From assembly GCA_016840425.1 (NCBI GenBank), contig JAEOSI010000060.1, forward strand, positions 1 to 10,350: 10,350 bases of DNA, read 5' to 3'. Below the pieces are notes generated by a model. That model worked only from the letters and a program-made list of their open reading frames with translations, was not told where the DNA came from and did not search any database. A program made the translations under genes and the position numbers. The number at the start of each line of letters is the position of its first letter. Position 1 is the first letter of the stretch. The stretch is from Candidatus Wukongarchaeum yapensis. GTDB taxonomy: Archaea > Asgardarchaeota > Wukongarchaeia > Wukongarchaeales > Wukongarchaeaceae. Below, piece by piece: positions 1,611 to 10,020 of the stretch.

Positions 1611-1620
1611 AGCGATTTTT

Positions 1621-1626
1621 CCTCCT
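1621..1626 (-). promoter_or_regulatory. Shine-Dalgarno site of mer
   Basis: cctcct on the + strand is AGGAGG on the - strand, 10 nt before the ATG at 1610. Confidence 0.75.
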
Positions 1627-1849
1627 TATTTAACAAGTTTTAAAATTTTTAGAAAAATATTTTCAGCATTTTCTAATTTGCGCGCCTTTTTTTAATTTTT
1701 TCGATTTTTACGCGAGAATTTAACACTTTATTTTTTCAAAAAAAGAGTTTTCAGCGACTATTTAGGCAAATAAGGATTATTAAAGGTTAAAAATGTTTCG
1801 GCAAAAAATAGGTTATAGAAGGGAAAATCGAACAAAAAAATAAACATTT

Positions 1850-1951
1850 TTAAGATTCGAATAGTTCAAGAAGTTCTTTTTCGTATTTTTCTTTCAGTTC
1901 TTCAAGTTTTATTTTCACTTCAGGATTGTTCGGCGTTTTTAAACAGGTCAA
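1850..1951 (-). CDS. Candidate 33-aa small protein or pseudogene remnant
   Basis: TTG start, translation (M)TCLKTPNNPEVKIKLEELKEKYEKELLELFES-TAA. It has an amphipathic E/K/L helix pattern and purine-rich codons like the real genes here. No clear RBS and no ATG start. Confidence 0.3.
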   Translation of the reverse strand: MTCLKTPNNPEVKIKLEELKEKYEKELLELFES

Positions 1952-2139
1952 AAGATTTACAGCGTTTATTCAAACCTAAAAAAACGGGGTATTTTTCAGT
2001 TAATTGATTTAAAAATAACTCTATAAATTGAGAATAGGTTTTTCTAAAAACGCCAAAAATCAACTTTAATTTGGGATAAATGATTATGTGAATTGTTCTG
2101 CCCTTAAGGAAGGGTTTTCTTATATCTTAATTATTAAAA

Positions 2140-4401
2140 TTATTTTAGATATGCAGTCTTTTGATAGGGCTTTATGCTTTTTTTAGTAAGTAGAATAAAT
2201 GCTAAGATAAATAAGAGGGCAAAAGTCCCTGAAATTGCTGTCCCGATTAACCCTATCGTTCCTTCCTGAATTGCAAAAAATATAGACGTGGCTATTAATA
2301 CTGTCGCTAGAATCAGGGTAAGAAGCGGGACGTACTTTGGCATTTCAATCTTAGAACGGCGGAAAAATATCTCTATCGGTTTTTTCTGTATGAATATTCT
2401 TTCAACAGTTTTTCCTAGCTTAACTTCCTCGCTCCCTACCTTTAGACTAAATTCTATATTGAGGGGGAAGTCTCCGAGTGCTAAAGGTTTAGCCTGGAAC
2501 TTTATCTCCTTTTTTTTCCTCTCTAATATCTCCTTTATTCTTATTTTTAAGCCGGTTGGGATTATTTTTAAAGCTGTGCATGCAGGCATGATTTTAATAA
2601 CCCCTTCAGAAACTATTTCTGGATTGATTTTTTCCATTTCTAAAGCTTCTGGAGGTTTTTTAATGGAAATTCCGATCTCGTAATCTCCTTTTATGGCCAT
2701 CCTCTGCCAATAAATTATTTCGCAGTGTTCCTTAATCATCTTCCTCAATTTTTCAGCAATAGCTTCTAATTCAGCTCCTTCCTCCAGCATACTAGGAGTA
2801 GTAATAACCTCTTCCTCCTCTTCTTTAACCTTTTCAGCGGCCATAATCTCCTCTTCAGGGACTTCCCTCTCAACTATTTCTTCTTCTCCTATGGTCTCCA
2901 TAACCTCCTCTTTTTCAACAACTTCTATGGCCTCCTCCACAGGAGCTTCTTCCAGTTCCTCTTCTTCCCCTATTTCTAATATTTCCTCTTTTGGTTGCCA
3001 AACAATTTTCTCTTCTCTCATCATTGATAGGGCTTTGGTAAGATCTTTTGATAGTGTTTTCATTTGCTCTTTAAGCATATCAGTATCCTCAGAAGAGGAA
3101 AGAAGGGGCGTAATTATGCGAGGAGTAGTTTCAGGGATAGAAGTTTCAATTTCCCCAAGAGAAGGTTCTGCACCTATTTTTATGGAGACAAAAACATTGC
3201 TTATCGGATACTCTATGCTTAAAACGTGTTCAAGCTCAATAGCCTCTTCTCCCACATAGTAATCTTTTTGAATCTTCTCCATTTCAGGAAGCATCGTCTC
3301 GATTTTTGGATAACCTACCAACGTAGGCATAACTACCCTAGGTCTATTTTCCCCAGAAAAACCTGCTTTTGTGATATCAGCTCCTATATCCAATATAATC
3401 GGGACTTCAAAAGTTTCAGCTATCTTTTCAGTTTCAGGATCAGGAGACGTGCTCATAATCGTTTGAAACCTTTTCTCTTCAATTATCGAAACGCCCTTCT
3501 CCTCAAATGCTTTCTTTGTTATCCATAACCTGTTTGATGTTTTAATGGAAGTAAGAATGCTTGCGCCAACCCACTCTCCATGTTGAGATTCTGCGGGTGC
3601 AAGAATTTTAGCCTTGTAATTTTTAGGCAAAAGCCTTTTTAATTCCTTTAAAAGCCTCTCCTTCAAACCTGGTAAAGCACTTATTTCCCCAGAAACTACG
3701 ACTGATTCCACGATTTCTTTACGTAGATCATCATCACATCTATCCACTGCTTCCACTATCGCTTCAGGCAGCGATTTTTCGTCGATTTCACCTATAGAGG
3801 GGGTGAAAAGGATTTCGGGTGCCATAAATCGTTCAGCATTAAGCGTTATTATCTCCCCAAAAGGAGTCTCATAAACCTTTTCTATAGCCTCGGGTTTTTC
3901 CGCAATTTTAACTTCTTCATCAAAGTCTAAAGATACATAACAAAACTTTTCCTTAATATCTTTCAAAAATCTCTTTTCTGGACCCGTTGTAAATAACATA
4001 CCTTTTTCGCCCAGAAGTTTTTCAAGAGTTTTCGTAATTGTTTTACCACCAAGTTTAAGAGAAACCATGGCTTCAACTATCGGCCTTGCATCTTTAATAG
4101 GCACAATTTCAGTAAAGTCTTCCCCTATATTAACGATAATACCTGTAACTTTCCCTGTACTAAAAAGCGCAAGAACGTTTTTATCCAGCAACATTACTGC
4201 AGGAACATTTATTCTTTCAAAACAAAACCTTACCAAGGTTTCTCTTTCGCTTTTCGTAATCATCACGGAGTCTGGGAAAACGAGGGGATGAAGAGTAGAT
4301 TCCACACGAAAGGTTTCTTGAAGAATATAGTTGATCATTTGCTCTAAAGCATCCCAATTTTTAATAGCTCTAACAGGGAAAACCTTACTTATCGCCATCA
4401 C
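2140..4401 (-). CDS. Circularly permuted, membrane-anchored actin-related protein (actin fold + acidic stalk + predicted beta-sandwich + 2 TM helices)
   Basis: aa ~7-312 match actin ~68-375: NWDALEQM~NWDDMEKI, FERINVPA~FETFNVPA, DIKEKFCYVSLDF~DIKEKLCYVALDF, ERFMAPEILFTP~ERFRCPETLFQP, WITKKAFEEKGVSIIEEKRF~[20 protein letters not shown]. aa 334-401 match actin ~7-72: IILDIGADITKAGFSGENRPRVVMPTLVG~[29 protein letters not shown], and QKDYYVGEEA...LSIEYPI~QKDSYVGDEA...LTLKYPI. Hydrophobic segments occur at aa ~691-710 and ~715-738. Start is GTG 4401 or ATG 4398, after GAGGGTTGA. Confidence 0.9.
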   Translation of the reverse strand: MMAISKVFPVRAIKNWDALEQMINYILQETFRVESTLHPLVFPDSVMITKSERETLVRFCFERINVPAVMLLDKNVLALFSTGKVTGIIVNIGEDFTEIVPIKDARPIVEAMVSLKLGGKTITKTLEKLLGEKGMLFTTGPEKRFLKDIKEKFCYVSLDFDEEVKIAEKPEAIEKVYETPFGEIITLNAERFMAPEILFTPSIGEIDEKSLPEAIVEAVDRCDDDLRKEIVESVVVSGEISALPGLKERLLKELKRLLPKNYKAKILAPAESQHGEWVGASILTSIKTSNRLWITKKAFEEKGVSIIEEKRFQTIMSTSPDPETEKIAETFEVPIILDIGADITKAGFSGENRPRVVMPTLVGYPKIETMLPEMEKIQKDYYVGEEAIELEHVLSIEYPISNVFVSIKIGAEPSLGEIETSIPETTPRIITPLLSSSEDTDMLKEQMKTLSKDLTKALSMMREEKIVWQPKEEILEIGEEEELEEAPVEEAIEVVEKEEVMETIGEEEIVEREVPEEEIMAAEKVKEEEEEVITTPSMLEEGAELEAIAEKLRKMIKEHCEIIYWQRMAIKGDYEIGISIKKPPEALEMEKINPEIVSEGVIKIMPACTALKIIPTGLKIRIKEILERKKKEIKFQAKPLALGDFPLNIEFSLKVGSEEVKLGKTVERIFIQKKPIEIFFRRSKIEMPKYVPLLTLILATVLIATSIFFAIQEGTIGLIGTAISGTFALLFILAFILLTKKSIKPYQKTAYLK

Positions 4402-4560
4402 TCAACCCTCAAAATAGGAGTAGGTGAACTCCTCAATTCCTTAATCATTTCAAATAAACACTAAACTAAAATCTATGCCTTGGCTAAACCCTACCTAAAC
4501 TATTGTTTATCTAAGTCTCCTTTATTAATCTTTTTAAGTTTATTTACCTTACAAAACCTT

Positions 4561-4600
4561 AAAAAAATCCACAAAATAAAATTAGGAGAAAGAAGAAGTT
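4561..4600 (-). terminator. Possible archaeal oligo-T terminator downstream of nadC
   Basis: Minus strand reads ...cttcttctttctcctaattttattttgtggattttttt, a pyrimidine/T-rich tract about 80-120 nt after the nadC stop. Confidence 0.3.
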
Positions 4601-4678
4601 TGTGATCTACCAGTTTATCGCCTTTAAAACTTATTATCAATTTTTTAAAAACCAGTTTCTAAGTTTTTTCATATGGAA

Positions 4679-5527
4679 TTAAACGGGTTCAAGTTTTAGG
4701 GAGAAATCAAGGGCTGGGGCTGAATGTGTAATACACCCCATAGAAATCACGTCGACACCCGTTTTCCCAAACTCAGCAATATTTTCGAGAGTTACGTTAC
4801 CAGAAACTTCAATAATCACTTTATCACGCAAATTTTCTTGGCTGATAAGCTTCAAAGTTTCCCTTATTTTTTCTGGTGGAAAATTGTCAAGCATTACTAT
4901 ATCTGCTCCCGCCTTAATCGCGGTTAAAGCATCTTCAGAACTCTCTACTTCTACTTCTACTTTTTTCACAAAACTTATCCTTTTTTTTACTTCTCCAACC
5001 GCTTTTGCTACGTCGCCTATAATGGCTAAATGGTTTGTTTTAATCAAAACACAGTCATCAAGCCTATATCTGTGTGTATCTCCCCCTCCATTTTCTACCG
5101 CTTTTTTTTCCATAAAATGCATATCTGGTAACGTTTTCCTTGTGGCAGCTACGCGGGTATTTAAACCTAATTTTTTTAATTCCGAAACTGCTAGGAAGGT
5201 TAAAGTAGCAATGCCAGACAGATGCATTAAAAGATTTAAAGCGACACGCTCTCCTAAAAGGATAGATTTTGCAAGTCCCTCAAGCTCCATTACTTTCTCC
5301 TCTGAAACAACCTTATCTCCATCAAACTTTAAAACACGCACCTTAACACCCAATAACTCAAACAGTCTTGAGGCATATCTTACCCCAGATAAAACCCCCT
5401 CCGACTTAGAAATGATATAACCTCGAGTTTTTTCGCCTTCAGAAATCACGATATCCGACGTTAAATCGCAAAAACCCACATCTTCCTCTAAAAAACGAAG
5501 AAGCAACTGATCAATTATGGGGTTCAT
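4679..5527 (-). CDS. nadC: Nicotinate-nucleotide diphosphorylase (carboxylating), i.e. quinolinate phosphoribosyltransferase
   Basis: 282 aa with L-x-EDVG-x-x-DLTS, LLGERVALN, ATRKT-x-P, HRYRLDDCVLIKTNH, VEVEV, ADIVMLDNF, IEVSGNVT and GVDVISMG-x-ITHSAPALDFSL. AGGAGA RBS at 5537-5542. Confidence 0.96.
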   Translation of the reverse strand: MNPIIDQLLLRFLEEDVGFCDLTSDIVISEGEKTRGYIISKSEGVLSGVRYASRLFELLGVKVRVLKFDGDKVVSEEKVMELEGLAKSILLGERVALNLLMHLSGIATLTFLAVSELKKLGLNTRVAATRKTLPDMHFMEKKAVENGGGDTHRYRLDDCVLIKTNHLAIIGDVAKAVGEVKKRISFVKKVEVEVESSEDALTAIKAGADIVMLDNFPPEKIRETLKLISQENLRDKVIIEVSGNVTLENIAEFGKTGVDVISMGCITHSAPALDFSLKLEPV

Positions 5528-5589
5528 AGTCCATAATCTCCTTAAGCTTAGTTAAAAGGGTGTTAAGAACTTGGAACAAACATAATGTG

Positions 5590-5641
5590 TAAGAGACTCT
5601 TCTATCGCTTTAATATAAGAGACTCCTCTATTGGTTTAATA
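5590..5641. repeat. 26-bp tandem direct repeat (2 copies, 23/26 identical) between nadA and nadC
   Basis: taagagactcttctatcgctttaata (5590-5615) followed immediately by taagagactcctctattggtttaata (5616-5641). Confidence 0.9.
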
Positions 5642-5649
5642 CATGTTTT

Positions 5650-6582
5650 TTAGCTGCTTAGTTTTAACATTTTTTTGATCGCTTTTTCTACCTTTTCCGC
5701 TATTTCTTCAGGAACTGAAATGATTTTGTTTTCTTTTTCTAGAACTTCTACTATCTTTTCTAAGTTGATTCTTTTCATTTGGCGGCATATTGCTGTAGAT
5801 AAGGCGGGAATAACCTTTTTTCCGGGTAATGTATACTGTAATCTTTCAATAAGCCCGATTTCGGTAGCAATTATAACGGTTTCGCTATCTGTTTCTTTGG
5901 CAAATTTTATGAGTTGGGCGGTACTTCCAATAAAGTCTGCAATTTGTTGAAGTTCAGGATCACATTCAGGATGAACTGCAAGAACAGAATTTTCATAACT
6001 ATCTTTTAAATCTAATACCCTATCAATTTCAAACGTTTTATGAACGTAACAATAACCTTTCTTGGGATAGTTTATCACTTTCACGCCTGACTTTTGAGCG
6101 GCAAACCATCCTAAATTAGCATCTGGGCCAAAAAGAACCTTGTTATCTTTAGCAACCGCTTTAGCGATTTTAGGCGCATTAGAGCTTGTACAAATCACAT
6201 CACACTCAGCTTTAGTCTCGGCAAGAGTGTTAATGTAAGCAACAAAAGGTATGTTTGGATGCTCTTCTTTAGCGCGAATTACTTCTTTTGGAGGCAGTTG
6301 AGCAGCCATGGGACAACGTGCACTTAAATCCGGTAAAAGAACGCTTTTATCAGGGTTCAGAATGCTCGCGGTTTCGGCCATGAAATCAACGCCACAAAAG
6401 CATATAATATCCGCATCATGAGCGTTTTGAGCAGTTCTTGCAAGTTCCAAGCTATCTCCCACAAAATCTCCCACTTGCTGAACCTCGAAAGGTTGATAGT
6501 TGTGAGCCAAAATGATGGCGTTTTTCTCCTCTTTCAACTGATAAATTTTCTCTTGAAGCTTCTGTATCTGTAAAGTTTGCAT
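5650..6582 (-). CDS. nadA: Quinolinate synthase A ([4Fe-4S])
   Basis: 310 aa with ILAHNYQ, GDSLELA, FCGVDFMAETA, CPMA, AYINT, CTSSNA, FGPDANLG, CYVH, HPEC, GSTAQL, TEIGL and C-x-x-MKRI. The three cluster-ligating cysteines are present. Confidence 0.96.
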   Translation of the reverse strand: MQTLQIQKLQEKIYQLKEEKNAIILAHNYQPFEVQQVGDFVGDSLELARTAQNAHDADIICFCGVDFMAETASILNPDKSVLLPDLSARCPMAAQLPPKEVIRAKEEHPNIPFVAYINTLAETKAECDVICTSSNAPKIAKAVAKDNKVLFGPDANLGWFAAQKSGVKVINYPKKGYCYVHKTFEIDRVLDLKDSYENSVLAVHPECDPELQQIADFIGSTAQLIKFAKETDSETVIIATEIGLIERLQYTLPGKKVIPALSTAICRQMKRINLEKIVEVLEKENKIISVPEEIAEKVEKAIKKMLKLSS

Positions 6583-6709
6583 GGTAGAAACCTCTGGACA
6601 TCCTGTTAACTTTTATAGTAACTTTTAAAACAAGTTAGGGCTAACATTAATATCCGACTAAAAAATAAAAATATCACCATTTATAGATATCTTTCGCTTT
6701 AAAAGTTTA

Positions 6710-6715
6710 AGGAGG
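6710..6715 (+). promoter_or_regulatory. Shine-Dalgarno site of the FrhB/FpoF-like gene
   Basis: AGGAGG 8 nt upstream of the ATG at 6724. Confidence 0.75.
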
Positions 6716-6723
6716 ATTACTAA

Positions 6724-7785
6724 ATGAGTGATGTAGACGAAGGATTCGATGTATTAAAAGAATTCGTTATAGATAGAGGTACATGCTGTGGTTGTGGCTT
6801 GTGTGTCACTATGTGCACCAAAGGCTTAATTGCTTTTGACGGAATCCCAAAACTTGTAGGTGAATGCACGGAATGCGGAAGGTGTAACTGGAATTGTCCA
6901 AGACTCCCTTCAGCAGAAACTGGCGAGGTCATCCCTTCAGTGCCCAAGGCTGAAAACGCTACAGAAGACGAATTAATCGGGCCATATAATGAACTATTGG
7001 GCGGAGAAGCTGTTAAGAACGAGATTTTAGAGCGGTGTCAGGATGGTGGTGTAGTTACGGCGATCTTGTGTGCTTGCTTAGAGAGCGGGTATATTGATGG
7101 GGCTATTGTTACTGGGATTGATCCTGGACATCCTTGGAAGGCTAAACCGATGGTGGCTACAACAACGGATGAGATAATAGCTGCAGCAGGCACGAAATAC
7201 CTATACCCTGCAGAGCTCTCCATGATCAAAAAGGCCATAAAAGAGTCAAAGCTTGAAAAAATCGCCGTTGTTACAAGACCTTGTGGCGCCCAAGCTGTCA
7301 GGAAAATGCAAAATTCCGATAAAAAAGCCATTCAAAGAATGGGCGAAAAGGTCAAACTACTTTTAGGTCTTTTCTGCATGGAAAGCTTTTCAGACGATTT
7401 TCTGCAAAAAGAAGCTGCAGAAAAGAGAGGAATAGCTTTAGAAGACATAAAAAAAGTTAACATTAAAAAAGACTTCATAATAACTCCAAAAGCCGAAGAA
7501 AACGTTGTTATACCGATGGACGAAGCTTCCTCTTACATCAGAGACGGCTGCCACTTTTGCGCAGATTTTGCTTCAGAGTATGCTGATGTTAGTTGCGGAG
7601 CCGTAGGAACAAAAGAAGGTTCATCCACAATAATAGTACGCAATAATACAGGCAAAGAAGCTGTAGAACTTGCAACCAGCAACGGATGGCTCAGCACAAG
7701 AACCGTTTCAGAAAAAGCCCTAAAAGTACCACAAGCCCTATCTAAACGCAAAAAAGAACATGCAAAACCCATACCTTCAAGATAA
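6724..7785 (+). CDS. Coenzyme F420 hydrogenase/dehydrogenase beta-subunit family protein with N-terminal 2x[4Fe-4S] ferredoxin domain (FpoF/FqoF-like architecture)
   Basis: N-terminal CxxCxxCxxxC twice (CCGCGLCVTMC and CTECGRCNWNCP). FrhB-family motifs: QDGGVVTAIL, AAGTKY, VVTRPC, LGLFCMESF and CHFCADF-x-S-x-x-ADVSCGAVG. Confidence 0.9.
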   Translation: MSDVDEGFDVLKEFVIDRGTCCGCGLCVTMCTKGLIAFDGIPKLVGECTECGRCNWNCPRLPSAETGEVIPSVPKAENATEDELIGPYNELLGGEAVKNEILERCQDGGVVTAILCACLESGYIDGAIVTGIDPGHPWKAKPMVATTTDEIIAAAGTKYLYPAELSMIKKAIKESKLEKIAVVTRPCGAQAVRKMQNSDKKAIQRMGEKVKLLLGLFCMESFSDDFLQKEAAEKRGIALEDIKKVNIKKDFIITPKAEENVVIPMDEASSYIRDGCHFCADFASEYADVSCGAVGTKEGSSTIIVRNNTGKEAVELATSNGWLSTRTVSEKALKVPQALSKRKKEHAKPIPSR

Positions 7786-8310
7786 AAAAATAAACAAAAT
7801 AAACTCCACACACAAAAATCGACTAAAACATGCTAAATTTTTATTTTATCCATGTGGGCGAGAAGGCTCCATACAGAAGGATAGAGATGAAAACCCGCAG
7901 GCCTTAGATATGCCGGTTTTCTATACCCTAATAAAACAGCCTTTTAGGCTACATGCTCAAGAGCAGGACTGTCCTATGCCTGGATCATGTATAAATGGAA
8001 GTGAACCAGCTCAAAACTCCCCCAATGGACAGTGAACTTTTAGAGATTCAGCATGCGAGAGAAGAAGTTCCCCGCAATATCTGAGATTAGTTCACGAAAT
8101 ATCGTTGCAAAAGAGCTTATACTTCCACAAAAAAGTAGAAAGCGATGAAATGCAACTAAAAACAAAACGCTTTCCTACTTCCCTATTTTTCGCCCCCTCT
8201 AAGCCCATCCTACCTTCATTCACCATTTCGCTAATGGAAAGTGGGAAATGTTTTTTTATAAAAGAAAACATAAAAAAGCATGTTTTTTGAAGATGAGGAT
8301 TGTGTGAAAA

Positions 8311-10020
8311 TTGGGTAACAAAAGGGAGAAAAAAAAGGAAGAGGAATTAGTTGAAGAAGAGGGGGAAGAGGAGGAAGAGGAGGAAAGGGAAGAAGAAGTA
8401 GAGGGAGAGCTTGAGGAAGAAGAGGAATTAGTTGAAGAAGAGGAGGAAGAGGAGGAAAGGGAAGAAGAAGTAGAGGGAGAGCTTGAGGAAGAGGAACCTC
8501 TTGTCTGGGAAGAAACGGTATGGAAAACCACGCCTGTTAAGATTGGGGAAGAAATCGAGGAAAAAGAAGAAGGAGAAGAGGAGGTAGAGGTAGGAATACC
8601 AACAGAAGAGGAAATAACGATAAAAGTAGAGTCCCCAACACCCATAGAAGAAGAGGAGTTAGAAGCTTTAATAGAGGAAGAAGAGTTAGAGGAAGAGGAA
8701 GTTGGTGGAGAGTTAGAAGAAAAAATAGAGAAGATATTGGAGAAGCAGGTAGAGCAAGTTAGTGAAGAAGTAGAGGAAGAGGAGTTACTAGAGGAGGAGG
8801 AAGAAGAAGAGGAGGAAGAAGAAGAGGAGGAAGAAGAAGAGGAGGAAGAGGAGATTGGTGAAGAAGTAGAGGAAGAGGAGTTACTAGAAGAGCGGGAGAT
8901 AGAGGACAAACTTTCAAAAATTGGCATATCTTATGAAAAAGATGTCATGGAAACAGTAAAACCAAAACCTGAAGACATCTTTGAAGAAATACTTAATGAC
9001 CAAAAAAGCATTTATGAAAAAGTAATAGAAACGATAAAAGTGCCATTACCCCTCTTTTTGCCAATTTTTATCTTGATAGTATACGGCTTATTTTCAAGCA
9101 CGATCAATTTTTACGGTAATTCAAAAGACTGGGATCTACTATTAGAGGATTGGGTAACTCCATTTTTAATATCCGCCGCCATAACCTCTATGTGGGGTTT
9201 TATCATCATAGGTTCAAGAACAGCAAGGAATTTTTATTATGAGATTAACGACCAGGTTAACGCGCCGAAAAAAGCTTTTCAAAAGCTTTTCTTAAAAGAG
9301 GTTAAAAAATTTTTAAAAGATTGGAAAATCCCCATATTAGGCCTCTTTATTGCCCTAGGCGCCGTTTTGCTTGTAAGATCCAGTAGCAGCTGGTACTCCT
9401 CAAAAGTTGCCACAAACACCCACTACGTCGTTTTAGGTCTTTCGTTCTGGTTCCTCAGTATTGGTCTTGGGATACTTCTTAGAATGGTGTCTTTTACAAG
9501 ATCAATGGGGGGAGTAAATTTCCACGTAAACTTTTTCCACCCAGATGAAAATGCAGGTCTCCTACCTTTAGGGAACCTAAGCCTAAAAATTGCGTCCATG
9601 ATCGCCATAATTTTCAGCCTCCTAACAGCAGGCCTCGTCGGGATTTTAGATAAAAGCGGGAACGATGCTAATAAACTCATCTTATGGAGTTTCCCCCTAG
9701 CCTGTGTTATTTTATCTGTTTTTCTTTTCATTTCCCCCCTATTTAGCTCTCACGATCTTATTGTAAAAGAAAAAAAGGCGGAAATGTTAAATTGGAAAGG
9801 TAGTTACGGAAAACTTGCAAAAGAATTCTTCCTCTACCTAACCGAACACAAAACCATAGATCTACAGACAGGGATAGGCATTCAAGTCCTAAGTAACATA
9901 TATCGGGAGATAAAAAAGGTGCCTAATTGGCCTTTTAACACAAAAATTATCATGAAATTAACTTTGATTGCGCTACTCCCCCTTCTAACATTCCTATTTA
10001 CAAAAGAAATAATCATTTAA
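8311..10020 (+). CDS. Uncharacterised polytopic membrane protein with a ~200-aa poly-glutamate N-terminal region
   Basis: 569 aa from a TTG start (in-frame TGA at 8305-8307 upstream; first ATG is at 8947). aa 1-201 are about 56% Glu by hand count. About 7 hydrophobic segments follow from aa ~245, with FHPDENAGLLPLG and PNWPF motifs. Confidence 0.8.
   Translation: MGNKREKKKEEELVEEEGEEEEEEEREEEVEGELEEEEELVEEEEEEEEREEEVEGELEEEEPLVWEETVWKTTPVKIGEEIEEKEEGEEEVEVGIPTEEEITIKVESPTPIEEEELEALIEEEELEEEEVGGELEEKIEKILEKQVEQVSEEVEEEELLEEEEEEEEEEEEEEEEEEEEEIGEEVEEEELLEEREIEDKLSKIGISYEKDVMETVKPKPEDIFEEILNDQKSIYEKVIETIKVPLPLFLPIFILIVYGLFSSTINFYGNSKDWDLLLEDWVTPFLISAAITSMWGFIIIGSRTARNFYYEINDQVNAPKKAFQKLFLKEVKKFLKDWKIPILGLFIALGAVLLVRSSSSWYSSKVATNTHYVVLGLSFWFLSIGLGILLRMVSFTRSMGGVNFHVNFFHPDENAGLLPLGNLSLKIASMIAIIFSLLTAGLVGILDKSGNDANKLILWSFPLACVILSVFLFISPLFSSHDLIVKEKKAEMLNWKGSYGKLAKEFFLYLTEHKTIDLQTGIGIQVLSNIYREIKKVPNWPFNTKIIMKLTLIALLPLLTFLFTKEIII
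8338..8490 (+). repeat. Intragenic tandem duplication (81-bp and 72-bp units)
   Basis: EEELVEEEGEEEEEEEREEEVEGELEE (8338-8418) and EEELVEEEEEEEEREEEVEGELEE (8419-8490) are identical at DNA level apart from a 9-nt indel. Confidence 0.9.
8762..8888 (+). repeat. 31-bp direct repeats flanking a (GAGGAGGAAGAAGAA)x3 minisatellite within a run of 21 Glu codons
   Basis: gtgaagaagtagaggaagaggagttactaga occurs at 8762-8792 and 8858-8888. The 15-mer is repeated three times at 8794-8838. Confidence 0.88.

What the first reader, a model, noticed from the sequence alone, without database searches (positions are those of the whole stretch)
3199..4401. Circularly permuted actin
The actin fold is encoded out of order. 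The protein starts at the equivalent of actin residue ~68 (FPV..IKNW), runs to the actin C-terminus (SIIEEKRF~SIVHRKCF, aa 312, nt 3466), passes through a ~21-aa linker (QTIMSTSPDPETEKIAETFEV), and only then supplies the actin N-terminal block (aa 334-401, nt 3402-3199: phosphate-1 hairpin, D-loop/subdomain 2, ending YPI). The two blocks are complementary and together make almost exactly one actin, which argues against two random fragments. In known actin structures the N- and C-termini both lie in subdomain 1, so a 21-aa joint is plausible. The new termini fall in the 70-78 sensor (methyl-His73) loop. I know of no described natural circularly permuted actin, but I cannot verify novelty here.
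Basis: partly seen in the sequence, partly recalled or inferred. Interest (0 to 1): 0.95.

Follow-up and report, generated by a model that had tools for sequence, protein, structure and literature searches.

The report
Membrane-anchored circularly permuted actin
An Asgard archaeon encodes a conserved protein whose actin fold is stitched together in swapped order, has lost the ATP-splitting residues and is tied to the membrane by a long acidic tether; no actin built this way turned up in the literature searched.

Summary
One ORF (window 2140-4401, minus strand, 753 aa) matches the actin profile twice. Residues 13-312 correspond to actin 76-375. After a 21-aa linker, residues 334-405 correspond to actin 7-75.

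It is not an assembly chimera. The same order occurs in ten sequences from at least five independent assemblies. These form two paralogous clades, cpA and cpB, that group together in a tree. Both paralogs sit in this genome beside a normal actin.

With a deeper alignment AlphaFold2 gives a confident model (pLDDT 88.7, pTM 0.87). Its large block superposes on actin at Z 34.5.

- The ORF runs on for another 350 aa: a roughly 150-aa poly-Glu tether, an Ig-like β-sandwich and a two-helix membrane hairpin.
- The ATP-site residues are replaced in every member (Q137K, H161E, and G15, D154, D157, G158).
- The family has two paralogs.

dN/dS is 0.2-0.4, against 0.04 for the canonical actin, so the genes are functional but freed from actin's extreme constraint.

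Most likely this is a non-hydrolysing, membrane-tethered actin-fold subunit that links canonical actin filaments to the membrane. That function is inferred, not shown. I found no published description. The family was seen in one genus among 400 Asgard genomes and in 2 of 1.84 billion protein clusters.

The parts
2140..4401 (-). Whole ORF, 753 aa (P0001). GTG at 4401; the likely real start is the ATG at 4398, with GAGGGT 6-7 nt upstream. Stop codon at 2140-2142.
   Evidence: Full-length orthologues of 740-763 aa.
4366..4398 (-). N-terminal stub, aa 2-12 (MAISKVFPVRA). It is a second copy of the actin 64-75 segment, so it overlaps the end of the N-block. Predicted beta-strand 5-13.
   Evidence: Actin profile positions 63-70 are matched at both ends. 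VIA aligns model residue 8 to actin residue 72. DSSP of the model.
3466..4365 (-). Large actin block, aa 13-312 = actin residues 76-375. It covers the rest of subdomain 1, subdomains 3 and 4, the phosphate-2 and adenosine motifs, and the C-terminus (KRF).
   Evidence: gapless, offset +63. Structure: Z 34.5, rmsd 1.7 Å over 304 residues.
3403..3465 (-). 21-aa acidic linker, aa 313-333. It joins the old actin C-terminus to the old N-terminus. pLDDT about 69.
3187..3402 (-). Small actin block, aa 334-405 = actin residues 7-75. It covers the phosphate-1 hairpin, subdomain 2 with the D-loop, and ends at YPISNVFV.
   Evidence: pLDDT 87-95. Lowest dN/dS of any segment, 0.12-0.21.
2737..3186 (-). Acidic tether, aa 406-555. 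29% Glu, net charge -30, mostly predicted disordered with one helix at 438-462.
2332..2736 (-). Conserved beta-sandwich (Ig-like) domain, aa 556-690, with the IYWQRM motif. No Pfam family.
   Evidence: pLDDT 55-80. VIA Z about 9 to transglutaminase and macroglobulin beta-sandwiches, a generic fold. Homologous between cpA and cpB, E 2e-20. No Pfam hit.
2143..2331 (-). Two hydrophobic helices, about aa 691-711 and 714-744. Lys/Arg flank both outer ends and the loop is short, so this is a membrane hairpin with both ends in the cytoplasm.
   Evidence: Kyte-Doolittle scan. Helices 692-711 and 716-742 in the model. Conserved in both clades.

Best explanation
SHOWN.
- The gene encodes one polypeptide in which a complete actin fold is circularly permuted. 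The order is actin 76-375, a 21-aa linker, then actin 7-75.
- This is followed by a roughly 150-aa poly-Glu tether, an Ig-like beta-sandwich and a C-terminal two-helix membrane hairpin.
- It belongs to a small conserved family with two paralogous clades, cpA (this gene) and cpB.
- Both clades share the permutation and the tail, group as one clade in a tree, and coexist with a canonical actin in the same genome.
- All members have replaced the actin catalytic and phosphate-binding residues: Q137K, H161E, and G15, D154, D157, G158, R177 and K336 changed.

INFERRED, origin.
- A canonical Asgard actin gene was duplicated in tandem and fused in frame.
- It was then trimmed at both ends, leaving the 63-75 segment at both termini.
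- This happened once, before the cpA/cpB split, and the ancestor already carried the tail.

INFERRED, mechanism.
- The head no longer hydrolyses ATP, and cpA probably no longer binds it.
- It sits in the cytoplasm on a long flexible acidic leash fixed in the membrane.
- It works as a membrane-attached actin-fold subunit that binds the organism's canonical actin filaments, most likely through its better-conserved subdomain 2/4 (pointed-end) face. In that way it would couple filament ends or sides to the membrane.
- The permutation moves the chain exit away from the canonical C-terminus in the subdomain 1 barbed-end groove. A long C-terminal tail can then be attached without blocking that surface.

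Confidence by step: real permuted gene family about 0.95; degenerate ATPase about 0.8; origin by duplication about 0.7; filament-to-membrane linker about 0.4.
For: Permutation
- Pfam and PDB alignments.

Reality of the gene
- Ten sequences share the order.
- An identical cpB protein occurs on 5 contigs from three sources. cpA occurs on contigs of 26.7 and 34 kb with conserved FrhB-NadA-NadC synteny.
- No actin-coding remnant lies upstream.

Fold
- AF2 gives pLDDT 88.7 and pTM 0.87, with the N-block at pLDDT 87-95.
- Model residues 8-312 match actin 72-375 at Z 34.5 and rmsd 1.7 Å.

Selection
- dN/dS is 0.28-0.37 for cpA and 0.24 for cpB.
- The neighbouring enzymes give 0.17-0.22 and the canonical actin gives 0.04.

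Single origin
- cpA and cpB form one clade, SH-aLRT 96.
- Their tails are homologous, E 2e-20.

ATP site
- Residue table. The organism's own canonical actin keeps every one of these residues.

Membrane anchor
- Hydropathy scan and helices, conserved in both clades.

Face conservation
- cpB against the organism's own canonical actin: SD2 73% and SD4 70%, versus SD1 52% and SD3 47%.
- cpA shows the same trend: 46% and 46% versus 37% and 38%.
- The N-block, which holds the D-loop, has the lowest dN/dS.
Against: - No experiment or interaction prediction supports binding to canonical actin.
- SD1 and SD3 also hold the mutated nucleotide motifs, so their lower identity need not reflect the filament interface.
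- Several barbed-groove and W-loop residues differ (cpA: Y166K, G168A, Y169R; cpB: L349K/R). Hydrophobic-plug positions 266-267 differ too, so normal co-polymerisation is doubtful.
- No cytoskeletal genes lie nearby.
- Placement of the N-block in the model was not verified with a non-sequential superposition.
- The first AF2 run, with 10 sequences, failed for the head (pLDDT 20-40).
- The successful run used canonical-actin fragments in the alignment, which biases it toward the actin fold.
- Linker similarity to the actin N-terminal leader is not above chance, so direct relics of the duplication are limited to the terminal overlap.
Confidence: 0.5

Rival explanations
1. The permuted head does not touch canonical actin. 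It forms its own membrane-bound homo-oligomer or filament, or a cpA-cpB heteropolymer, much as MreB and FtsA do. That would be a nucleotide-independent membrane skeleton.
For: Two paralogs are always found together in G000 and G002. The D-loop hydrophobics are kept (L/M44, M/V47) along with much of the groove (L346, T351, L355). Membrane tethering is typical of bacterial actin homologues (established knowledge of MreB and FtsA).
Against: Nothing was tested. The 150-aa flexible tether is an odd design for an ordered membrane lattice. cpB is still 57% identical to the canonical actin, which fits retained recognition of actin or of actin partners.
Confidence: 0.2
2. It is an actin-fold pseudo-enzyme that scaffolds non-actin partners at the membrane, as nuclear Arps scaffold remodellers. 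Candidate partners are profilin, gelsolin-like proteins, small GTPases or ESCRT components. The Ig-like domain would supply further binding.
For: The ATP site is degenerate. dN/dS is ten-fold more relaxed than for actin. There is an additional conserved beta-sandwich domain of unknown partner. A Ras-like fragment lies downstream on one contig.
Against: No partner gene is conserved in the neighbourhood. The best-conserved parts, SD2 and SD4, are actin-actin contact regions.
Confidence: 0.22
3. It is an artefact: a chimeric assembly of two actin genes, a fused gene call, or a decaying tandem duplicate with no function.
For: The window comes from a fragmented MAG (277 contigs). Eukaryotic tandem-actin gene models that mimic the junction exist in databases.
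Against: The same junction, linker and tail occur in independent assemblies from different samples and pipelines. The frame is open over 740-763 aa in all of them. dN/dS is below 0.4 in every segment. There are two diverged paralogs with the same architecture.
Confidence: 0.02

Closest known systems
Canonical Asgard actin (lokiactin type; the genome's own copy at G000:C185, and PDB 9wc4 'HC1 actin') and eukaryotic actin
   Same: Full actin fold. Pfam Actin scores 289 bits. Identity is 41% (cpA) and 57% (cpB) to the organism's own actin and about 37% to eukaryotic actins. There is a gapless 300-residue alignment to yeast actin. The two-residue D-loop insertion typical of Asgard actins is present.
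   Different: Chain order is permuted, with new termini at residues about 64-76. Old termini are joined by a 21-aa linker. Q137, H161, D154, G15, D157 and G158 are replaced. A 350-aa tail with a membrane hairpin is added. dN/dS is about ten times higher.
Actin-related proteins (Arps), including nucleotide-site-degenerate members
   Same: Diverged actin-fold paralogs that coexist with actin and serve as specialised, often non-polymerising, subunits (established knowledge).
   Different: Arps keep the canonical N-to-C topology and are soluble. In the tree the cp clade does not fall inside any sampled canonical group, but named Arp sequences were not included, so the relationship was not tested.
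FtsA and MreB (bacterial membrane-binding actin homologues)
   Same: The functional logic matches: an actin-fold protein held at the membrane by a terminal membrane-targeting element on a flexible linker. FtsA also shows a topological rearrangement of a subdomain (established knowledge).
   Different: This is an analogy only. Pfam MreB_Mbl gives E 0.01 on cpB, below its cut-off. The anchor here is a transmembrane hairpin rather than an amphipathic helix. The sequence is clearly eukaryote/Asgard-type actin.
Circular permutation by tandem duplication, fusion and terminal trimming (general mechanism known from other protein families)
   Same: The two blocks are complementary, a linker sits at the old termini, and a short segment (profile 63-70) is present at both new ends.
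   Different: I found no report of this for actin. No tandem-actin intermediate was found in Asgard genomes; the tandem forms in databases are eukaryotic gene models.

Membership tests
Actin family (Pfam PF00022) | Sequence match to the Actin profile above the curated threshold | tested here: met
   288.8 bits against a cut-off of 27. Each block also passes alone, at 249.7 and 47 bits.
Actin family (Pfam PF00022) | All four subdomains present once | tested here: met
   Profile positions 6-70 and 63/69-409 are covered once each. AF2 gives a single compact model, pTM 0.87.
Actin family (Pfam PF00022) | Canonical N-to-C order of the fold | tested here: not met
   Actin 76-375 precedes actin 7-75 in all 10 members.
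Actin family / ASKHA ATPases | Phosphate-1, phosphate-2 and adenosine motifs with catalytic Q137 and H161 | tested here: not met
   Q137K and H161E are found in all members. G15 becomes D/N/S/K/E, D154 becomes N/S, D157 becomes E/Y, G158 becomes D/N/M/T, and K336 becomes Q/S. G302E occurs in cpA only. The organism's own canonical actin keeps all of these residues.
Actin family | ATP-dependent polymerisation into double-stranded filaments | not testable with these tools
No biochemistry is available.
Actin fold (structure) | Three-dimensional match to solved actin | tested here: met
   For the 304-residue block: VIA Z 34.5, rmsd 1.7 Å; Foldseek E 1e-34, TM (target) 0.78-0.85. The position of the 72-residue block is supported only by pLDDT 87-95 and was not superposed.
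Permutation by duplication | Complementary blocks, a linker at the old termini, and an overlap at the new termini | tested here: met
   Similarity of the linker to the actin leader is not above chance.
FtsA / MreB | Match to the family profiles | tested here: not met
   Only MreB_Mbl at E 0.01 (15 bits against a cut-off of 27) and PilM_2 at E 0.012, both on cpB.
Integral membrane (hairpin-anchored) protein | Two hydrophobic helices of about 20 aa or more, with basic flanks | tested here: met
   Kyte-Doolittle above 1.6 for windows starting at 685-701 and 714-726. Helices 692-711 and 716-742. Flanks are RRSK...PKY and KKSIKPYQK. No dedicated TM predictor was available.

The most novel reading that the evidence does not exclude
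A natural circularly permuted actin exists, and it is a membrane-integral, nucleotide-independent actin subunit. It would physically couple Asgard actin filaments to the cell membrane by capping or seeding them. That makes it a one-protein solution to a task that in eukaryotes needs separate linker or nucleator proteins, evolved in a lineage close to the eukaryotic stem.
Probability: 0.35. Interest if true: 0.92.

Novelty: new variant of a known kind. Interest (0 to 1): 0.82.

Why it matters
Actin is among the most conserved proteins known, and its chain topology is treated as invariant across actins and Arps. A natural permutant that is kept by selection shows the fold tolerates re-threading at the sensor loop.

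It also gives a design rule. C-terminal tags sit in the barbed-end groove and are poorly tolerated; the permutant shows where a large cargo can be attached to an actin fold without using that terminus.

It occurs in an Asgard lineage labelled Hodarchaeota by NCBI. Cultured relatives of that lineage build actin-filled, dynamic protrusions (bioRxiv 10.1101/2025.02.26.640444; PMC13716822). A membrane-anchored actin-fold paralog is therefore a concrete, testable candidate for how these cells join cytoskeleton to membrane, an open question for eukaryogenesis models.

Its degenerate ATP site would also make it a natural example of a nucleotide-free actin fold.

Tried and rejected
1. AF2 on the full-length protein with only the 10 family sequences (A2). 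The head failed (pLDDT 20-40) and only the tail domain was usable.
2. A deep alignment that included canonical N-terminal fragments (A3). MAFFT aligned these fragments to the subdomain 3 adenosine region, the internal duplicate of the actin fold, and dragged the C-terminal 75 residues out of place. A3 was discarded. A4, without the N-fragments, was used instead.
3. Complex prediction of the cp head with the genome's own canonical actin. It was not folded, because of a tool rule on eukaryote-like chains. There is no verdict and the rule was not probed further.
4. A relic of the second actin copy in the tail (aa 406-560), and similarity of the linker to the actin N-terminal leader. Neither is convincingly above chance. 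The tail gave 6/300 shuffles, probably a Glu-composition effect; the linker gave 421/1000.
5. Actin N-terminal coding remnants upstream of the start (nt 4402-4700). None were found.
6. Tail homologues outside the family. None were found among shorter proteins or proteins of similar length, and there is no Pfam family. ESM Atlas hits score below 0.9 and are leads only.
7. Fold search of the tail domain. It returns only generic beta-sandwiches at Z about 9, so no functional assignment is possible.
8. Gene neighbourhood. cpA sits among NAD biosynthesis and F420-related genes and cpB among miscellaneous housekeeping genes. No cytoskeletal partner was found.
9. Bacterial-type promoter and terminator scan, Rfam and tRNA scans. 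Nothing informative came back.
10. Literature searches for a prior description. None was found. Subscription-only papers are not covered.
Full report
WHAT IS THERE

The window carries one long ORF on the minus strand, nt 2140-4401, 753 aa (P0001). A TGA stop lies directly upstream of the GTG at 4401. The next codon is ATG (4398), preceded by GAGGGT. Further upstream lies 277 bp of AT-rich, stop-filled spacer before nadC. That spacer has no actin-like coding potential in any frame.

The neighbours are archaeal housekeeping genes: CofE, a luciferase-like F420 oxidoreductase, NadC, NadA and an FrhB-like protein. The closest named relative is a 'Candidatus Hodarchaeota archaeon' MAG protein annotated only as hypothetical (MFX0162413.1). 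The host is therefore an Asgard archaeon, not a eukaryote.

CHECK OF THE OBSERVATION

Pfam Actin hits the protein in two stretches. Residues 12-311 match profile positions 69-409. Residues 334-405 match profile positions 6-70. Each stretch is significant on its own (E 5e-74 and 1.9e-12).

Against PDB sequences, residues 13-312 align to yeast actin 76-375 with no gap at all. Residues 334-404 align to actin 7-75 with only the two-residue D-loop insertion that Asgard actins share. The best hit is the Hodarchaeales 'HC1 actin', 9wc4.

Profile positions 63-70 are matched at both ends of the head. So the segment around actin 64-76 (YPIEHGI...) survives twice: as FPVRAI at the N-terminus and as YPISNVF at the end of the small block. 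That overlap is the classical footprint of permutation by duplication and trimming.

IS IT REAL?

Yes, for the following reasons.
- The 5.8-billion-protein search returned six clusters of 715-763 aa with the same order.
- Including the sister genome G002 and a second copy in this genome, ten sequences align end to end.
- They come from independent assemblies: JGI 3300002052 (a 34-kb contig), JGI 3300027901, ENA ERZ27275860 (21 kb), NCBI GCA_048886645.1 (26.7 kb) and Logan.
- The FrhB-NadA-NadC-cpActin synteny is conserved.
- dN/dS between orthologues is 0.28-0.37 for this gene. It is lowest, 0.12-0.21, for the small actin block.
- For comparison, dN/dS is 0.24 for the paralog, 0.17-0.22 for the neighbouring enzymes and 0.04 for the canonical actin of the same two genomes.

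The gene is therefore maintained by selection, but it has escaped actin's extreme constraint.

THE FAMILY

The window's genome (2.16 Mb, 92% complete) has three actin-family genes:
- a canonical actin (at least 374 aa; its ORF runs off the end of its contig) with every nucleotide-site residue intact;
- this gene, cpA;
- a second permuted gene, cpB, on contig 97, cut by the contig end.

G002, of the same genus, has the same three genes.

I re-ordered the blocks in silico and built a tree with 9 Asgard actins and 39 cluster representatives. cpA and cpB form one clade (SH-aLRT 96). cpA sits on a long stem of 0.94 and cpB on a shorter one of 0.28.

The tails of the two clades are homologous (27% identity, E 2e-20). 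The simplest history is one permutation event in an ancestor that already had the tail, followed by duplication.

cpB is still 57% identical to the organism's canonical actin and cpA is 41% identical. This points to origin from the lineage's own lokiactin-type gene. The tree does not resolve the exact donor.

DISTRIBUTION

Reading all 1.84 billion cluster representatives, only two (one per clade) match the permuted head in a single stretch. The next-best hits are eukaryotic tandem-actin gene models from maker/snap or fungal and amoebal annotations.

Among 400 Asgard-phylum genomes, a junction-spanning match in a long open frame occurs only in G000 and G002. The third genome of the same GTDB order and class has only canonical actins.

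STRUCTURE

AF2 with the ten family sequences alone failed for the head.

A deeper alignment was then built. It held the ten family members, seven natural 'windows' cut from eukaryotic tandem actins, and 41 canonical C-terminal fragments. I checked that MAFFT had not mis-threaded it.

This alignment gave pLDDT 88.7 and pTM 0.87. The large block scored 88-98 and the small block 87-95. The linker scored about 69.

Foldseek and VIA-align place model residues 8-312 on actin 72-375: Z 34.5, rmsd 1.7 Å, 304 residues, 36% identity.

Both aligners are sequential, and coordinates are not exposed. The docking of the small block into subdomains 1 and 2 therefore rests on AF2 confidence and on matching secondary structure, not on an independent superposition. 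The alignment also contained canonical actin fragments, which biases the model toward the actin fold.

In the model the two overlapping terminal segments are both strands (5-13 and 400-408). This suggests they pair and zip the new termini together, which is an inference.

After residue 405 the protein continues as follows.
- About 150 residues with 29% Glu and net charge -30, mostly disordered.
- A conserved domain of about 130 residues, predicted as a beta-sandwich. It has only generic Ig-like matches at Z about 9 and no Pfam family.
- Two hydrophobic helices, about 691-711 and 714-744, separated by a short loop and flanked by Lys/Arg on both outer sides.

By the positive-inside rule this is a membrane hairpin with both ends cytoplasmic. 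The actin head is therefore cytoplasmic and leashed to the membrane. No homologue of the tail was found outside the family.

I used the gapless mapping to yeast actin numbering.
- Every family member has Q137K and H161E.
- G15 is replaced by D/N/S (cpA) or K/E (cpB).
- D154 is replaced by N/S.
- D157 is replaced by E/Y.
- G158 is replaced by D/N or M/T.
- R177 is replaced by S/T.
- K336 is replaced by Q/S.
- cpA also has S14A and G302E.

In established actin biochemistry, Q137 and H161 position the attacking water, and the glycine-rich phosphate loops grip the β- and γ-phosphates. I therefore infer that the heads are not ATPases. cpA, with acidic side chains at positions 15, 158 and 302, probably does not bind nucleotide at all. 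D11, G13, K18, K213, E214 and G301 are kept.

HOW IT MOST LIKELY WORKS (INFERENCE)

A stable, nucleotide-independent actin-fold module on a long leash fixed in the membrane is best explained as a membrane attachment point for the cell's real actin filaments.

Two observations lean that way.
- Subdomains 2 and 4, which form the pointed-end face that docks onto a filament's barbed end, are the parts most like the canonical actin. For cpB the identities are 73% and 70%, against 52% and 47% for SD1 and SD3. cpA shows the same trend.
- The block carrying the D-loop has the lowest dN/dS.

Conversely, barbed-face elements are altered. In cpA these are the W-loop changes Y166K, G168A and Y169R. In cpB they are L349K/R and the loss of F375.

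A subunit that can add to a barbed end but cannot accept the next subunit would be a membrane-tethered cap or anchor. I give this about 0.4.

The permutation itself makes mechanical sense. The canonical C-terminus lies in the barbed-end groove of subdomain 1. Moving the chain exit to the sensor-loop region lets a large tail leave the fold elsewhere.

RIVALS

- The heads form their own membrane-bound polymer (0.2).
- The head is a pseudo-enzyme scaffold for non-actin partners (0.22).
- It is an artefact or a decaying gene (0.02).

Cultured Hodarchaeales and Lokiarchaeia build dynamic, actin-filled protrusions (bioRxiv 10.1101/2025.02.26.640444; PMC13716822). Neither paper mentions such a protein.

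COMPARISON AND NOVELTY

By sequence it is an actin-family member, but it fails two defining features: canonical topology and the ATPase motifs.

Functionally the nearest analogy is FtsA or MreB, actin-fold proteins held on the membrane. It is not a member of those families.

Full-text searches returned nothing relevant. I searched for 'permuted actin', for circular permutation combined with actin, Asgard, Hodarchaea or ASKHA, and for membrane-anchored Asgard actin-like proteins. Databases call the protein 'hypothetical' or, for fragments, 'actin-related protein'.

I rate it a new variant of a known kind: an actin fold with an unprecedented topology and a built-in membrane anchor. Interest is high because actin topology is otherwise invariant and because of the lineage it occurs in.

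LIMITS

- No coordinates were available for a permutation-aware alignment.
- No expression data are available.
- Subscription literature was not searched.

Noticed in passing
G000 contig C97 (L002:1-1713, minus strand); G002 contig C7 (L018:694-2784): A second permuted-actin paralog (cpB; 696-716 aa in full-length relatives) is in the same genome, cut by the contig end. It is 57% identical to the canonical actin, has the same tail architecture, and keeps G302/T303 but shares Q137K and H161E.
   Followed up: yes
G000 contig C185 (L001:1462-2583): A canonical actin gene with all ATP-site residues intact, 98% identical to its G002 orthologue (dN/dS 0.04). It coexists with both permuted paralogs. 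Its ORF runs off the contig end.
   Followed up: yes
window 8311-10020 (+): A 569-aa ORF with an extreme poly-Glu N-terminal half (runs of more than 20 E) followed by a multi-pass hydrophobic C-terminal half. It has no Pfam hit. Syntenic genes of 551 and 573 aa with no Pfam hit lie on the related contigs L031 and L035. It causes the strong purine skew at 8000-9000. Like the cpActin tail, it combines an acidic region with a membrane region.
   Followed up: partly
window 4679-7785: The FrhB-like / NadA / NadC block next to cpA is conserved in order and orientation on contigs from three other assemblies (L031, L035). This looks like plain synteny among close relatives, not a functional link.
   Followed up: partly
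window 1611-2139: About 530 bp of AT-rich spacer (GC about 29%) lies downstream of the cpActin stop. It has no ORF of 60 aa or more, no Rfam hit and no tRNA.
   Followed up: partly
alignment A3: MAFFT consistently aligns isolated actin N-terminal fragments (phosphate-1 hairpin) to the subdomain 3 adenosine region (IVLSGGST...). This makes the ancient internal duplication of the actin fold visible at sequence level. It is a trap when building alignments for permuted actins.
   Followed up: yes
P0009, P0013, P0014: Eukaryotic 'tandem actin' proteins of 570-770 aa in public sets (maker/snap models, Anaeramoeba ignava, Psilocybe cubensis) mimic the C-term-to-N-term junction. They are probably fused gene predictions of tandem actin arrays, not permutants.
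   Followed up: partly
L031:12737-12910: On one related contig, a fragment of a Ras-like small GTPase (weak Pfam hit) lies just downstream of the cpA orthologue, at the contig end. It is not present at that position in the window.
   Followed up: no
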